A DNA stretch of 64,000 bases from assembly GCF_009914755.1 (NCBI RefSeq), contig NC_060926.1; one strand, given 5' to 3'. Under the pieces are notes generated by a model. That model was given only the letters and a program-made list of their open reading frames with translations, made no database searches and had not been told where the DNA came from. A program made the position numbers and the translations under genes. Source of the stretch: the human T2T-CHM13v2.0 reference genome, Homo sapiens. Position 1 is the first letter of the stretch; each line of letters opens with the position of its first letter. Below are positions 962 through 8,404 of this stretch, in pieces.

Positions 962-1012
962 GTATTTATGATGATGATCCTGAAATCATAACATTGGAAA
1001 GAAGAGAATTTG
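962..1012 (+). CDS. DNAJC10: DNAJC10/ERdj5 coding exon 5 (51 nt): (G)IYDDDPEIITLERREF(D)
   Basis: attag|GTATTT acceptor, TTTG|gtaagt donor, phase 1-1; peptide matches ERdj5. Confidence 0.96.
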
Positions 1013-1599: not shown

Positions 1600-2301
<702 letters not shown>

Positions 2302-2985
2302 TAATCTTATTTTCTACATCATGCTGGTGAGCTTCACATACAAAATAGCTGTTCAATGTGTTACTTTGTTAAAAGCCTTCTAGGTGAACACTTGAACATG
2401 TTCTAAGTGAATAGAAAATACATCTTTCCTGTGTTCTGCAAATAAGACAATTTGATTCATTTGGATTGTTAATAGAATTAATGCTCATGTCACAAGCTGG
2501 TAGAATCATAACTCTCGTGTGAGTTATATAAACCTATAGCTGTTCCTGTGTGGTTTTTATTGTCTCTCATCTCCTAATATATCAGTAAGTGTTTTGTGTA
2601 CCAATGGTTCAGAAAACATCGGAATTACAGATAGAGGAACTGAACAAAACTTGCAAGCTTACTAATCCATGAGTCTACCTAGAATGAGACTTCACTGATA
2701 GTTATATTGTATATGGGTTCACACTTTTTCAGATGTGTCACTATGCAGAAAAGCTTAAGAACTGTTAATAGTTCATATAGAACCCCAAATGGTAGTTCAA
2801 GATAAATTGCAGCCACAAAACTTCAGAGATAATTCATAAATAATTAACCTTGCTTGATGAGAGGAATGAGCAGGAGCATTGTTGTGATAGAGAAGGACCC
2901 TCTAGTGAAGCTTTCCCAGGCATTTTTCTGCTAAGCAGATGTTATCATTTCTGGCTCTCTAGAAAGTCAACAAGCAAATGCCTTC

Positions 2986-3589
2986 TAAGCTCTTCTATTA
3001 TATGCAGCATAGGTTAAGTAGGTTTAATCAATTCTGACAGCTACTGTAAACTCTGAAAGAATAAAATAAGAGACCTACATAATACAGTAAGGATTGCGGG
3101 GATTAAATTTAATATAAGCCCTAAATAAGACATTACCTTGGAAAATCACTTTATTTGAAAAGATTGACTTTTTTTTAACAATTCAAAACATTAATACATA
3201 CTTGCTAAAATTATAGATTTGAACATGTGATATCTAGCCAATAGTGCAGTTTATATTTTATCTGTAAAATGACCTGATGCAAATTACAAATTTTACTCAC
3301 TTAAAAAATTTAACATTGTAAAAATGTGCTTTCACATTCAAGATAAAAAGGCGAGGGTAATCTGCTTTTGGTTAAAGGATTTCCATATGATTCCATGTTA
3401 AAATTAGTTAATATTTTAAAATAAAAATTTCAGAAATTACAGTAAGACATTAAAACATGCATGGTATTCTAAATACGTGCAACTAATTCAGGCTAATTAG
3501 AAACAGGTACAGGACTCAGTGTTCACCTACATTTCAAGTATAAGATAGACCTGTGGGGAAAAAGTTAATCTGTACATTACAGGCAAAGT
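2986..3589 (+). repeat. Left arm of ~600-bp inverted repeat
   Basis: Reverse complement of 6510-7111; about 32 differences by manual alignment. Confidence 0.96.
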
Positions 3590-5205
3590 AATTACATTTT
3601 ACTTTGCTAATAGAAGCTGTTAACTGGAGTTGTATGTATATTAACAGACAGTAGCTGTAGTTGTATAGTTTAGAAGTGGAAAGTTGCATTTTGAAATGTA
3701 ATAATTCTATTCTGGGTCACTGTTAGGCACAACATCCCATTGAGCTGTGATGATACAGTATTTAAAATATTTTAACTTTATTCTTATTACTCAGCAATCA
3801 GTGGGAACTTGGCAAATATGAGAAGTGCTCTATGAAGACAAAGTACAGGTGTACCTCATTTTATTACACTTTGATTTATTGCACTTCATAGATAATGCAC
3901 TTTTTTTTCCTTAACAAATTGAAGGTTTTTAGCAACCCTACATCAAGCGAGTCTATCAGCTGAACGTGTTTCCAATAGCATGTGCTCATTTCATGTCTCT
4001 TTCTCACATTTTGGTATCCAAACTTTTTCATTATTATTCTGTCTGTTACAGTGATCTACAGTCAGTGATCTTTGATGTTACTATTGTAATCATTTTGGAG
4101 TGTGCCCATAGGATGGCATACTTAATTTTTGTGTCTATTCTGACTGCTCCCTCTTCCTTCTCCCTTTTCTCTCCCACTTCTTGGGCCTCCCTACTCCCTG
4201 AGATACAACATTACTGAAATTAAGCCAATTAATAACTACAGTGACCTCTTAAGTGTTGAAGTGGAAGAGATGCACATCTCTCATTTTAAATCAGAAGCTA
4301 GAAATGATTAAGCTTAGTGAGGGAGGCATATCAAAACCCAAGACAGGCTAAAAGGTAGACCTCTTTTGCTAGTTAAATTATAAATGCAAAGGAAAAGTTC
4401 TTCATGGAAAGTAAACGTGCTACTCCAGTGAACACACTAATGATAACACAAAACAGCCATACTGCTAACATAGAGAATGTCTTAGTGGTCTGGGTAGATC
4501 AAATTATCTACAACATCCCCTTAGCGAAAGCCTAACCAGAGAAAGACCCTAATTCTTTTCAATTTTATGGAGGCTTAGAGAGATGAAGAAGCTGCAGAAA
4601 AAAGTTTGAAGCTAGAAAAGGTTGGTTCATGAGGTTTAAAGAAAACAGCCATCTCCATAACATCAAAATACAAGATGAAGCAGCAAGTCCCGACATAGAA
4701 GCTGCAGCAAGTTTTCCAGAAGATCTAGCTAAGATCATTGATGAAGGTGGCTATACTAAACAACAAATTCTCAATGTTAATGAGACAGCCTTCCATTGGA
4801 AGAAGATGCTATCTGGGACTTTTTTTTCATGCCTGCTAACACCATATCCATTCTGCAGCCCGTAAATCAAGGAGTAATTTCAACTTCAAGTCATATTATC
4901 TAAGAAATACATTTCATAAGGCTCTACCTGCCATAGGTAGTGATTCCTCTGATGGATCCAGGCAAAGTAAATTGGAAACCTTCTGGAAAGGAGTCACCAT
5001 TCTAGTGTCATTAAGAACATCTGTGATTCATGGAAGGAGGTCAAAATATCAGTGTTACAGGAGTTGGGAAGAAGTTCATTCCACCCTTCATGGATGACTT
5101 TGAGGTGTTCAAGGCTTCAATGGAGGATGTAACTGTAGATGTGATAGAAATAGCAAGAGAACTGGAATTAGAAGTGGAGCCTGATTATGTGACTGAATTG
5201 CTGCA

Positions 5206-5257
5206 ATCTCATTATAATGATCTCATTATAATATAATTATCTCATTATAATAATCTC
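5206..5257. repeat. Short tandem amplification of ATCTCATTATAAT inside Tigger1
   Basis: Three imperfectly spaced copies plus a partial fourth. Confidence 0.75.
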
Positions 5258-5689
5258 ACCATGGGGCGGTGAGGAGTTGTTCCTTATGGATGAGCAGAGA
5301 AAGTGATTTCCTGAGATGGAACCTACTCCTGGTGAAGATCCTGTAAACAATGTTGATATGACAACAAAGGATTTAGAATATTACATAAACTTGGTTGATA
5401 AAACAGCAGCAGGGTTTGAGGCCAGTTTTGACTCCAATTTTGAAAGAAGTTCTACTGTGGGTCAGATGCCATCAAACAGCATTTCACGCTTCAGAGAAAA
5501 TCTTTCAGGAAAGGAGACATCAATCAGTGTGGCAAACTTCATTGTCATCTCATTTTAAGAAATTGCCACAGCCACCCCAACCTTACACAACCACCACCCT
5601 GATCAGTCAGCACCCATCAACATCACGACATGCATGACTTGCTGAAAGGCTGAAATGACTGTTAGCATTTTTTACCAATAAAGTTATTT

Positions 5690-5963
5690 TTTGTTCCTTG
5701 GTTGGTTTGTCACCCCACCTGGAGAGTGCAGCAGCAGGATCATAGCTCATCACAGCCTTGAACTCCTGGGCTCAAGCAATCCTGCTACCTCAGTCTCCCG
5801 ACTAGCTGAGACTGCGGGCATGTGCCACCATGTCCAGCTATTTTTATAGAGACAGGGTCTTGCTGTGTTTCCCAGGCTGGTCTCAAACTCCTGGGCTCAA
5901 GTGATCCTCCTGTCTCAGCCTCCCAAAAGGCTAGATGACAAGCATGAGCCACTGCGCCCAGCC
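5690..5963 (-). mobile_element. AluJ nested in Tigger1
   Basis: Divergent reverse Alu with ctcctgggctcaag in both arms (J-type). Confidence 0.85.
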
Positions 5964-6509
5964 TATTTTCTAATTAAGGTATGTACATTGTTTTGTTTGT
6001 TTTTTTTTTTTTAGACATAATGCTATTACATAATACACTGTATATAGTGTAAATATAACTTTTATATGCACTGGAAAACCAGAAAATTTGTGTGACTCCT
6101 TTATAGTGATACTTGCTATGTTGTGATTTGGAAACAAACCCACAATATCTGAGGTATGCCTGTTACCAGGGTAGGAGACATTTTTACTACAAGAAAGGTT
6201 TTGTGTCAAATACCATTCAAATTTGTTTTACAGCATATTTTTATTTAAGACTTATGAACAGTAATACCTTGTGTAATTATTGCTTTCTATTTTTATATAA
6301 AAATAACTACCTCATTACTTGTTTATAGCTGATAAGATAATCCCTTCTTTCATTAAAGTTTGCATTAATTCTGTTAATATTTTTACCTAAATTTGTACTG
6401 GTTTGTGGTCTAAACCAATATGGCAATTTTTTCGACCACCTCTATAGAATGGTCATTTGCCAGACTTTGAAAACATTGCCAAAGAACAGCCCATAGTCCT
6501 GAATTACAC

Positions 6510-7111
6510 ACTTTGCCTGTAATGTGTAGATTAACTGTTTTCCCACAGGTCTGTCTTATACTTGAAATGTAGGTGAACACTGAGTCCTGCACCTGTTTCT
6601 AATTAGCCTGAATTAGTTGCACGTATTTAGAATACCATGTGTGATTTAATGTCTTACTGTAATTTCTGAAATTTTTATTTTAAAATAATAAATTTTAACA
6701 TGGAATTATATGGAAATCCTTTAACCAAAAGCAGATTAACCTCGCCTTTTTATCTTGAATGTGAAAGCACATTTTTACAATGTTAAATTTTTTAAGTGAG
6801 TAAAATTTGTAATTTGCATCAGGTCATTTTACAGATAAAATATAAAATGTACTATTGGCTAGATATTATATGTTGTTCAAATCTGTAATTTTAGCAAATA
6901 TGTATTAATGTTTTGAATTGTTAAAAACCTCAACCTTTTCAAACAAAATGATTTTCCAAGGTAATGTCTTGTTTAGGGCTTAGATTAAATTTAATCCCCG
7001 CAATCCTTACTGTATTATGTAGGTCTCTTATTTTATTCTTTCAGAGTTTACAGTAGCTGTCAGAATTGACTAAACCTACTTAACCTGTGCTGCATGTAAT
7101 AGAAGAGCTTA
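6510..7111 (-). repeat. Right arm of ~600-bp inverted repeat
   Basis: Reverse complement of 2986-3589; 6740-6846 pairs perfectly with 3250-3356. Confidence 0.96.
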
Positions 7112-7519
7112 AATCTCAGTCACTCTTACTATTTGTCTTCTTTATTTCTCTCATGCACACAAACTCTTACGTGAGGTTTGGCTGCTATTTCTTGTGCCGT
7201 CACTTTTTACAACTTTATGGCCATATTTATCTTGCAGTTTGAGGCTGCTTCTTTTTCAAGTATGGGCGTAGGAGAGTTTTTTTAAAAAGCTATTGTTGGT
7301 TTGACATTTGAAATGTTTCTTGTGGAAAAAAAATTTTTAATTTTTTAAAAATGTCATTTATGTAGAAGATATAGAAAAACATCACACAGAAAATGAGAAA
7401 GACAATATGAAAATTGCATGACTTTTTAAAATTCTGATCTCCACAAAAAGTTTTTAACTAAAATATGCATGAACCTTTAATAAATAATTCTAAGTTGTTT
7501 GCATTTTATGTATTTTTAG

Positions 7520-7602
7520 ATGCTGCTGTTAATTCTGGAGAACTGTGGTTTGTAAATTTTTACTCCCCAGGCTGTTCACACTGCCATGATTTAGCTCCCA
7601 CA
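7520..7602 (+). CDS. DNAJC10: DNAJC10 exon 6 (83 nt), Trx1 active site CSHC
   Basis: ttttag|ATGCTG ... CCCACA|gtatgt; AAVNSGELWFVNFYSPGCSHCHDLAPT. Confidence 0.97.
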
Positions 7603-7805
7603 GTATGTATTTTTCACATCCTCATTACTAGTTTTATTTCTAATTGATCTGCAATTTATATGTTAGAATTTTTTTTCTATGAATAGTAATCAAAAATAAT
7701 TATCAAATACTTTAAATGTCTGGTTTAAAAATATATAGCTTGGAGTGTGTTCAAGGGAAGAAAAGTGGTCTTATCAGAGAAATATGTTTTCTTTTTCTGT
7801 CATAG

Positions 7806-7937
7806 TGGAGAGACTTTGCTAAAGAAGTGGATGGGTTACTTCGAATTGGAGCTGTTAACTGTGGTGATGATAGAATGCTTTGCCGAATGAAAGGAGTCAA
7901 CAGCTATCCCAGTCTCTTCATTTTTCGGTCTGGAATG
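7806..7937 (+). CDS. DNAJC10: DNAJC10 exon 7 (132 nt)
   Basis: catag|TGGAGA ... GGAATG|gtaagg; WRDFAKEVDGLLRIGAVNC...FRSGM. Confidence 0.97.

Positions 7938-8065: not shown

Positions 8066-8404
<339 letters not shown>

What the first reader, a model, noticed from the sequence alone, without database searches (positions are those of the whole stretch)
2986..7111. ~600-bp inverted repeat of non-TE sequence in DNAJC10 intron 5: predicted giant pre-mRNA hairpin
Seen: 2986-3589 is the reverse complement of 6510-7111, with about 32 differences by hand (~94-95% identity) and sharp outer boundaries. I recognise neither arm as Alu, L1 or MER. Established: duplexes this long are substrates for ADAR hyper-editing, Dicer and PKR/MDA5-type sensors. 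Inference: transcription would give a ~600-bp stem, longer and better paired than typical inverted Alu pairs, closing ~410 nt upstream of the exon encoding the Trx1 CSHC site. It could affect splicing, yield endo-siRNAs or serve as a locus-specific dsRNA. I know of no description of it, but cannot search.
Basis: partly seen in the sequence, partly recalled or inferred. Interest (0 to 1): 0.8.

Follow-up and report, generated by a model that had tools for sequence, protein, structure and literature searches.

The report
Inverted duplication inside a DNAJC10 intron
About 600 bases of unique sequence were copied backwards within one intron of the human DNAJC10 gene tens of millions of years ago, so the unspliced RNA can fold into a very long hairpin, but nothing here shows it does more than the many similar intronic hairpins already catalogued.

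Summary
Window 2986-3589 is the reverse complement of 6510-7111: 28 mismatches and 8 gap columns in 607 columns, 95.3% identity, with sharp ends. The arms are not a repeat family. The whole T2T genome holds only these two places, even at E<=10. A same-sized control from the loop found 3984 candidates at 70-76% identity. The loop holds much older material: a decayed pogo/Tigger-type transposon carrying an Alu. The left arm abuts a truncated mariner fragment. That, and the left arm's reversed T/A skew, suggest the left arm is the copy. Arm divergence is K2P 0.0485 +/- 0.009, a primate-age event. Predicted RNA: 585 bp, -911 kcal/mol, kept in the fold of a 4326-nt stretch. Best reading: a one-off local inverted duplication, probably neutral, whose intronic hairpin is probably a nuclear ADAR substrate. 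The kind is known: Barak et al. 2020 list 197 human intragenic inverted duplicates over 300 bp and over 96% identity. Editing, siRNA, splicing or sensor roles were not testable here.

The parts
2986..3589 (.). Left arm of the inverted repeat (604 nt, 28.8% G+C). Probably the derived, inverted copy.
   Evidence: It abuts a truncated mariner at 2984/2985. Its T/A skew is -0.093, opposite to the gene body.
6510..7111 (.). Right arm of the inverted repeat (602 nt, 29.4% G+C). Probably the ancestral copy, in its original orientation.
   Evidence: Its T/A skew is +0.106, like the gene body (+0.095) and the unique flanks. Both of its flanks are single-copy.
3590..3846 (.). Left spacer of the loop, single-copy sequence.
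   Evidence: One search gave no genome matches in this part of the query. One search found no homology to the right spacer.
3847..6163 (+). Decayed pogo/Tigger-type DNA transposon filling most of the loop (the name Tigger1 is recalled). It has an internal deletion of about 365 bp near 4822/4847 relative to copy L011.
   Evidence: 3984 candidates, and the 39 scored copies other than the query itself are 70-76% identical; collinear with copies L011-L013; those copies encode CENP-B_N, HTH_Tnp_Tc5 and DDE_1. The window's own ORF remnants gave no credible Pfam match.
5690..5975 (-). Alu inserted into the Tigger-type element. The ends are approximate and read by eye.
   Evidence: Rfam Metazoa_SRP match at 5847-5962 on the minus strand, E 7.7e-12. 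The hub's mask lists 5813-6031. Tigger homology is interrupted between 5625 and 5964.
6164..6509 (.). Right spacer of the loop, single-copy sequence.
   Evidence: the 1356-nt query 6164-7519 found only itself and the left arm.
2751..2984 (-). Internal fragment of a mariner-type transposon, cut off exactly where the left arm starts.
   Evidence: 671 candidates, 82-91% identity, with matches ending at query position 679-685, which is window 2978-2984; other copies run on for about 470 bp past that point, and the rest is nowhere in the 64-kb window. Pfam Transposase_1 on copies L008, L006 and L010 (E 5.4e-15, 1.9e-12, 0.0011). L010 scores below Pfam's curated cut-off (19.2 vs 24 bits).
3583..3607 (.). 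Small 9-bp inverted repeat with a 7-nt loop, straddling the inner end of the left arm (3583-3591 pairs with 3599-3607). Possible junction scar; its significance is uncertain.
   Evidence: Read directly from the sequence. No statistical test was made.
962..1012 (+). DNAJC10 exon 5. Its 5' splice site lies 1973 nt upstream of the left arm.
   Evidence: Hub gene table; geometry.
7520..7602 (+). DNAJC10 exon 6, which encodes the CSHC motif. It lies 408 nt downstream of the right arm.

Best explanation
This is a single, local inverted duplication of about 600 bp of unique intronic sequence. It arose in a primate ancestor long after the Tigger-type element, the Alu and the mariner were already in place. 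The most likely course: the segment now at 6510-7111 was copied in reverse complement and joined to a break inside the mariner at 2984/2985, replacing whatever lay between that point and 3590. That fits a replication or repair template switch, in the four-point notation 1=2985, 2=7111, 3=6510, 4=3590. An inversion with one staggered break would give the same picture. The duplication itself is shown. Which arm is the copy, and the mechanism, are inferred. In the pre-mRNA the two arms should pair once the right arm is transcribed. This would loop out 4126 of the 6507 intron nucleotides as a stem of about 585 bp. Such a stem is expected to be bound and promiscuously edited by nuclear ADARs, then removed with the intron. 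I judge it selectively neutral or nearly so, with at most a small effect on DNAJC10 expression. The folding is computed. The editing and the neutrality are inferred.
For: There are two copies only in the 3.1-Gb assembly, even at E<=10. The same search finds 70-76% identical copies of the neighbouring Tigger piece. So the arms are a local duplicate, not two insertions of a repeat. Arm divergence is K2P 0.0485 +/- 0.0093. The loop's transposon is 24-30% diverged from its relatives and the mariner 9-18%. So the duplication is the youngest event at the locus. The mariner is truncated at the arm's edge. Other copies continue for about 470 bp, and the missing part is absent from the whole window. 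That marks 2984/2985 as a rearrangement junction. T/A skew on the sense strand is +0.106 in the right arm, +0.02 to +0.12 in five unique flank or spacer segments, and +0.095 over the gene body. It is -0.093 in the left arm. There is no homology beyond the arms. There is no target-site duplication at the outer ends (by eye). Folding gives 585 inter-arm pairs, -911 kcal/mol against -227 to -236 for three shuffled controls, and helices up to 107 bp. All 585 pairs are kept in the 4326-nt fold. 409 adenosines are paired, 358 of them without a 5' G. Rfam finds no known RNA in the arms. For the general behaviour of such structures: PMC7006430 reports that an intronic inverted duplicate in KLHDC1 is heavily edited, about 14 inosines per transcript (passages). 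PMC5453318 describes replacement of the 1->4 fragment by the reverse complement of 2->3 (passages).
Against: No outgroup genome was available, so neither the polarity nor the age was tested directly. The skew argument is weak: 16% of 339 unmasked gene-body windows, and 11% of all 530, are as A-rich as the left arm. The mariner fragment is also truncated at its other end (about 2751), so truncated edges are not rare here. Neither junction shows convincing microhomology: there is one orphan C at 2985, and only AATT after a 4-nt gap at the inner edge (by eye). That fits end-joining as well as a template switch. The longest identical run (107 bp) is borderline long (p = 0.065). Gene conversion may therefore have made the arms look younger than they are. 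14 of 20 transitions keep a G-U pair in the sense RNA. This could hint at selection for pairing, but it is not significant (p = 0.115), and known transcription-linked mutation asymmetry would also produce it. Neutrality is an inference from absence of evidence. No expression, editing or conservation data were seen.
Confidence: 0.7

Rival explanations
1. The hairpin is a functional RNA element of DNAJC10. It might shorten the effective intron and aid or tune exon 5-6 splicing. It might be a source of endo-siRNAs. Or it might be a locus-specific dsRNA that engages ADAR1, PKR or MDA5, for example when the intron is retained.
For: The duplex is exceptional in size and pairing: 585 bp with helices up to 107 bp. 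It closes 408 nt from the 3' splice site and brings the two splice sites from 6507 nt to about 2381 nt apart. 14 of 20 transitions preserve G-U pairing in the sense strand. DNAJC10 is named among the host genes of universally expressed retroelements in PMC12495673 (passage), so the pre-mRNA should be common.
Against: There are no data on editing, small RNAs or splicing. The G-U bias is not significant (p = 0.115). The arms have drifted to 95% with 3 indels, as neutral sequence would. Both arms sit in one intron, so the duplex is normally nuclear and transient. Human somatic Dicer handles long dsRNA poorly (recalled). No paper links DNAJC10 to an inverted repeat (0 papers). None of the 12 of 14 listed papers with DNAJC10 and dsRNA looks relevant by title or abstract, and the one passage read (PMC12495673) is not about this. 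The one DNAJC10 A-to-G site found in print lies elsewhere in the gene by my rough estimate.
Confidence: 0.08
2. The duplication is much older than its 5% divergence suggests. The arms are kept alike by recurrent gene conversion or by inversion of the 2.9-kb spacer through recombination between them. The spacer may still be polymorphic in orientation in people.
For: Inverted repeats of this size with a spacer of a few kb are the classic substrate for recombination-mediated inversion (established knowledge). The 107-bp identical run is borderline unusual (p = 0.065).
Against: Differences are otherwise spread along the whole arm. The longest identical tract, 107 bp, is shorter than the tracts usually thought needed for efficient ectopic recombination in humans (recalled). 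No paper with DNAJC10 and inversion is relevant: 11 listed, none on this locus by title or abstract.
Confidence: 0.12
3. The arms are the terminal inverted repeats of a long-TIR or foldback transposon, or two insertions of one repeat family.
For: Sharp ends. The outermost bases read TA...TA around AGCTCTTC/GAAGAGCT.
Against: There is no other copy in the genome, even at E<=10, although the search recovers 70% identical old transposons. There is no target-site duplication. The interior is older host-resident repeats. 95% arm identity is far higher than for any DNA transposon of the age found in primates (recalled).
Confidence: 0.02
4. The repeat is an assembly artefact of T2T-CHM13.
For: None found.
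Against: The arms differ at 28 bases and 3 indels spread over 600 bp. A mis-join or duplicated read would not produce that. The surrounding sequence is ordinary single-copy intron.
Confidence: 0.01

Closest known systems
Intragenic inverted duplicated sequences (IDS) catalogued by Barak et al. 2020 (PMC7006430), e.g. the edited intronic structure in KLHDC1
   Same: Two reverse-complementary stretches within one pre-mRNA, several hundred bp long, a few kb apart, intronic, and predicted to form long dsRNA. Table S8 rows that I saw have arms of 313-1101 bp and spacers of about 0.6-5 kb.
   Different: That list takes only pairs over 96% identical, 197 in human. This pair is 95.3% and is not in the table. 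There is no row near the locus (the coordinate prefixes were recalled). The paper, as far as I read it, does not separate repeat-derived from unique-sequence pairs. This pair is unique sequence.
Inverted Alu pairs (IRAlus), the main human ADAR substrates
   Same: Intramolecular duplex formed by inverted copies in one transcript, mostly intronic. They are edited promiscuously and can affect splicing or back-splicing (established knowledge).
   Different: This pair is about twice as long and much better paired than the Alu pairs in the same region, which are 76-84% over 85-133 nt. It is not a mobile element, and it has exactly one possible partner.
Template-switch mutations, four-point model (Loytynoja and Goldman 2017, PMC5453318) and FoSTeS/MMBIR events
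   Same: A fragment is replaced by the reverse complement of a nearby fragment, creating an inverted repeat flanked by dissimilar sequence (passages).
   Different: The paper's model deals with short-range events that explain clusters within tens of bp, and it explicitly leaves long-range switches aside. Here 600 bp were copied from 3.5 kb away, and the junctions show no clear microhomology.
Hairpin RNA (hpRNA) endo-siRNA loci of Drosophila and mouse oocytes
   Same: A long inverted repeat transcribed as one RNA that folds into a long hairpin (recalled).
   Different: Those are defined by abundant Dicer products and, in flies, by target genes. No small-RNA evidence exists here, and the hairpin is inside an intron of a housekeeping gene.
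Inversions flanked by inverted duplications (staggered-break model) and inversions mediated by inverted repeats
   Same: The arm - spacer - inverted arm architecture with a spacer of a few kb (recalled).
   Different: Whether the 2.9-kb spacer was ever inverted, or is polymorphic, could not be tested.

Membership tests
Interspersed repeat (transposable element) copies | Multiple dispersed copies in the genome | tested here: not met
   Each arm finds only itself and its partner in 3.1 Gb, at E<=0.001 and at E<=10. The control piece of the loop's transposon gave 3984 candidates, and the mariner flank 671. Families below about 70% identity could be missed.
Long-TIR / foldback DNA transposon | Target-site duplication flanking the terminal inverted repeats, and an interior belonging to the element | tested here: not met
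   There is no direct repeat at 2985/7112. The interior is an older Tigger-type element with an Alu, plus unique spacers.
Intragenic inverted duplicated sequence forming putative long dsRNA (Barak et al. 2020) | Plus/minus self-match within one pre-mRNA, length over 40 and identity over 70% | tested here: met
   604/602 nt at 95.3%, both arms in intron 5. The definition is from the paper's methods passage.
Intragenic inverted duplicated sequence, 'long and tight' subset (Barak et al. 2020, Table S8) | Length over 300 bp and identity over 96% | tested here: not met
   The length is met, but identity is 95.3% ungapped and 94.1% with gaps. The locus is not in Table S8.
Template-switch (four-point) mutation | The derived allele equals the ancestral allele with the 1->4 fragment replaced by the reverse complement of 2->3 | not testable with these tools
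   This needs the ancestral allele from an outgroup genome. Only indirect support exists: the truncated mariner at point 1 and the skew.
ADAR hyper-edited region | Clusters of A-to-G mismatches in RNA reads over both arms | not testable with these tools
   No RNA data were available. Only the substrate property was shown: 585 bp with 409 paired adenosines.
hpRNA / endo-siRNA locus | Dicer-sized small RNAs mapping to both arms | not testable with these tools
   No small-RNA data were available. Rfam finds no miRNA or other family in the arms.

The most novel reading that the evidence does not exclude
This may be one of the longest well-paired duplexes made of unique sequence inside a broadly expressed human gene, and it may have a use. 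It could be a constitutive nuclear ADAR sink that becomes a potent MDA5 or PKR ligand whenever intron 5 of DNAJC10 (ERdj5, an ER-stress gene) is retained. That would link splicing or ER stress to innate dsRNA sensing. Alternatively, it could be a structural aid that sets the splicing rate of the exon encoding the first thioredoxin active site.
Probability: 0.06. Interest if true: 0.6.

Novelty: new member of a known kind. Interest (0 to 1): 0.3.

Why it matters
If it is only what it appears to be, it is a clean, datable example of a kilobase-range inverted duplication in a human intron. Its junctions are intact, including one inside a recognisable transposon. That makes it useful for studying how such events arise and how fast long intronic duplexes decay. 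It has exactly one partner and is not a repeat, so reads map uniquely. That makes it a convenient single-locus probe for nuclear ADAR activity, for dsRNA-mapping methods, and for asking whether retained introns deliver immunogenic dsRNA to the cytoplasm. It does not open a new kind of biology.

Tried and rejected
Pfam on the window's own transposon remnants gave nothing: 6 stop-to-stop pieces at E<=0.01, and 6 pieces at E<=10 with only chance-level hits. The families were therefore named from better-preserved genomic copies. One Pfam call failed because a reference contained stop codons. I dropped those three references and later used an open 34-aa piece.

Microhomology at the junctions, looked for by eye, was unconvincing. 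The mariner's expected continuation shares only AGC, out of register, with the arm's start. The inner junction shares AATT after a 4-nt gap.

Extension of the repeat beyond the arms found nothing.

Selection for RNA pairing was tested through G-U-compatible transitions: 14 vs 6, p = 0.115.

Gene conversion was tested through the longest identical run: p = 0.065, borderline.

Rfam at E<=1 over 2300-7700 gave 5 matches, all inside the Tigger/Alu part and none in the arms.

Literature searches:
- DNAJC10 with 'inverted repeat': 0 papers.
- DNAJC10 with 'A-to-I': 3 papers. I read one passage, an A-G site at another position in the gene.
- DNAJC10 with 'dsRNA': 14 papers, 12 listed, none relevant by title or abstract. 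One passage was read.
- DNAJC10 with 'inversion': 11 papers, none relevant by title or abstract.

No primate or other mammalian genome was available, so presence or absence in other species could not be tried.
Full report
THE OBSERVATION

The repeat finder reports four collinear inverted blocks that together cover 2986-3589 and 6510-7111, each 95-96% complementary. [quoted passage not shown] It shows 28 mismatches (20 transitions, 8 transversions) and 8 gap columns in three small indels. Identity is 95.3% over ungapped columns. A search of the whole assembly scores the pair at E = 1.7e-267.

The ends are sharp. Sensitive blastn of the outer flanks against each other, and of the inner spacers against each other, gives only short AT-rich matches at E >= 0.09. 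The arms are AT-rich (28.8% and 29.4% G+C) with 3 CpGs each. The right arm ends 408 nt before the exon at 7520-7602.

NOT A REPEAT FAMILY

The window's own genome (T2T-CHM13, 3.1 Gb) could be searched.
- The left arm finds two places, itself and the right arm.
- The right arm, with the threshold relaxed to E<=10, again finds only two, and the first look had only 2 candidates.
- As a control, a 604-nt piece of the loop (3847-4450) gave 3984 candidates. Of these, 40 were scored: the query's own place at 100%, and 39 other copies at 70-76% identity.

So the search does see old, diverged transposons. Families below roughly 70% identity could still be missed. That would not change the conclusion, because two stretches 95% alike and 2.9 kb apart, with no third copy, are a local duplicate.

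WHAT SURROUNDS THE ARMS

The loop (3590-6509) consists of four parts:
- a unique 257-nt spacer;
- a decayed DNA transposon at 3847-6163;
- an Alu inside that transposon, at about 5690-5975 (Rfam SRP-like match at 5847-5962);
- a unique 346-nt spacer.

The transposon is collinear with other genomic copies. Those copies encode CENP-B_N, HTH_Tnp_Tc5 and DDE_1 domains, so it is of the pogo/Tigger type. I recognise it as Tigger1 from its termini, which is recall. The window's own ORF remnants are too decayed to match Pfam.

To the left, 2751-2984 is an internal fragment of a mariner-type element. It gave 671 candidates at 82-91% identity. Other copies carry Pfam Transposase_1. The genome matches stop at window 2978-2984, and the left arm starts at 2986. 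Eight other copies continue for about 470 bp beyond that point. The missing part is nowhere in the 64-kb window. The right flank, 7112-7519, is single-copy.

ORDER AND AGE OF EVENTS

The arms differ by K2P 0.0485 +/- 0.0093. The Tigger-type copy differs by 24-30% from its relatives, and the mariner fragment by 9-18%. The duplication is therefore the youngest event, and it happened around repeats that were already there.

Converting 4.9% into time depends on an assumed rate: about 11, 20, 24 or 49 million years for 2.2, 1.2, 1.0 or 0.5 x 10^-9 per site per year. Against primate divergences that I recall, roughly 3% for human-orangutan and 6% for human-macaque, this points to an early ape or catarrhine ancestor. 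Gene conversion could make the arms look younger. The longest identical run, 107 bp, is borderline long (p = 0.065).

WHICH ARM IS THE COPY

Two indirect clues agree.
- The left arm's outer edge coincides with a break in a pre-existing element, the truncated mariner. The right arm sits in seamless single-copy sequence.
- On the sense strand the gene body has more T than A (skew +0.095). So do five unique segments around the repeat (+0.02 to +0.12) and the right arm (+0.106). The left arm has the opposite skew (-0.093). That is what a recently inverted copy would show.

The second clue is weak. Of 604-nt gene-body windows, 16% of 339 unmasked and 11% of all 530 are as A-rich as the left arm. 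The mariner fragment is also truncated at its far end. I put the polarity 'left arm is the copy' at about 75-80%.

MECHANISM OF ORIGIN (INFERRED)

[quoted passage not shown] Under that description the event would be 1 = 2985, 2 = 7111, 3 = 6510, 4 = 3590. The rest of the mariner would have been lost with the 1->4 fragment.

That paper treats short-range events and leaves long-range ones aside. This case would be a kilobase-range relative of the FoSTeS/MMBIR type. The junctions show no convincing microhomology (by eye), so end-joining of a copied fragment is as good a fit. An inversion with one staggered break would give the same arm - spacer - inverted-arm picture. It predicts that the spacer was flipped at the same time. 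A 9-bp mini-hairpin straddles the left arm's inner edge (3583-3591 with 3599-3607). It may be a junction scar; I did not test its significance.

WHAT THE RNA WOULD DO

Co-folding the two arms gives 585 inter-arm pairs and no intra-arm pairs. The energy is -911 kcal/mol, against -227 to -236 for three shuffled controls. There are 16 helices, the longest of 107, 86, 53 and 52 bp, and 15 G-U pairs. In the minimum-free-energy fold of 2886-7211 (4326 nt, -1701 kcal/mol), all 585 pairs are kept, from 2986:7111 to 3589:6510.

The stem would loop out 4126 of the 6507 intron nucleotides. That leaves 1973 nt before it and 408 nt after it. It contains 409 paired adenosines, 358 of them without a 5' G.

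From established knowledge of ADAR enzymes, such a duplex should be edited promiscuously in the nucleus. PMC7006430 shows this for a comparable intronic pair in KLHDC1 (passages). Because both arms are in one intron, the duplex encloses no exon. It should not drive back-splicing, and it normally leaves the cell's RNA pool with the intron. Exposure to cytoplasmic MDA5 or PKR would need intron retention. Efficient dicing of long dsRNA is not expected in human somatic cells (recalled). None of this could be checked, because no RNA data are on hand.

IS THERE A SIGN OF FUNCTION?

I found none.
- Rfam finds nothing in the arms. Its five matches at E<=1 all lie in the Tigger/Alu part.
- 14 of 20 transitions keep a G-U pair in the sense RNA. 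This is not significant (p = 0.115), and the known excess of A-to-G changes on the coding strand would also produce it (recalled).
- The arms have accumulated substitutions and three indels along their whole length, as neutral sequence would.

COMPARISON WITH WHAT IS KNOWN

Intragenic inverted duplicates that can form long dsRNA have been catalogued across 49 species. For human, 197 pairs longer than 300 bp and over 96% identical lie within RefSeq transcripts. Only 20 of them are expressed above FPKM 0.01 in the pooled tissues studied, and 7 of those are appreciably edited (PMC7006430, passages). The rows of its Table S8 that I saw have arms of 313-1101 bp and spacers of about 0.6-5 kb, the same architecture as here.

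The DNAJC10 pair falls just below that identity cut-off and is not in the table. The gene name is absent from the three supplementary files. That says little, because the table gives coordinates only. No row starts with the coordinate prefixes I expect for the locus in hg19 or hg38 (those prefixes rest on recalled gene positions).

I found no paper that describes this repeat:
- DNAJC10 with 'inverted repeat': 0 papers.
- With 'A-to-I': 3 papers. One reports an A-G site at chr2:182762777, which by my rough recalled offset lies tens of kb downstream of the arms.
- With 'dsRNA': 14 papers, 12 listed, none relevant by title or abstract, with one passage read.
- With 'inversion': 11 papers, none relevant by title or abstract.

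These searches cover open-access full text only. Supplementary tables of editing-site catalogues were not searched.

VERDICT

The structure is a genuine local inverted duplication of primate age, with an informative junction inside a mariner. It is a new instance of a known and already catalogued kind. The functional ideas are untested, and on present evidence unlikely to go beyond ordinary nuclear editing of an intronic duplex.

Noticed in passing
window 4464-4544 (-) and 5285-5347 (+): Sub-threshold Rfam matches to the mir-1261 family (31.6 bits, gathering score 91) and the mir-1255 family (25.9 bits, gathering score 63), both inside the Tigger-type element. They are most likely look-alikes that come from the transposon itself, not miRNA genes.
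   Followed up: no
window 1626-1843, 2039-2263 and 8150-8366: Three Alu-like stretches form inverted pairs at 76-84% complementarity. Two lie in intron 5, upstream of the left arm. One lies in the intron after the exon at 7806-7937. The 1626-1843 / 8150-8366 pair therefore brackets exons 6 and 7 and could favour back-splicing. The big hairpin lies between them.
   Followed up: no
window about 4822-4847: The Tigger-type copy lacks about 365 bp that other copies have. Window 4822 aligns to L011 position 1095, and window 4847 to L011 position 1460. The gap falls in the DDE_1 region of those copies.
   Followed up: partly
window 3583-3607: A 9-bp perfect mini inverted repeat with a 7-nt loop sits exactly across the inner end of the left arm. 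It may be a scar of the rearrangement.
   Followed up: partly
Table S8 of PMC7006430 (not the window): Many of the listed human inverted duplicates share one architecture: arms of roughly 300-1100 bp, spacers of roughly 0.6-5 kb, and over 99% identity. This suggests a recurrent way of making such structures. Their repeat content was not examined.
   Followed up: no
DNAJC10, hg38 chr2:182762777 (outside the finding): A preprint table lists an A-to-G RNA variant in DNAJC10 that is enriched in Alzheimer's disease samples (PMC12918791). By a rough recalled offset it lies tens of kb downstream of the arms. It was not mapped to the window.
   Followed up: no
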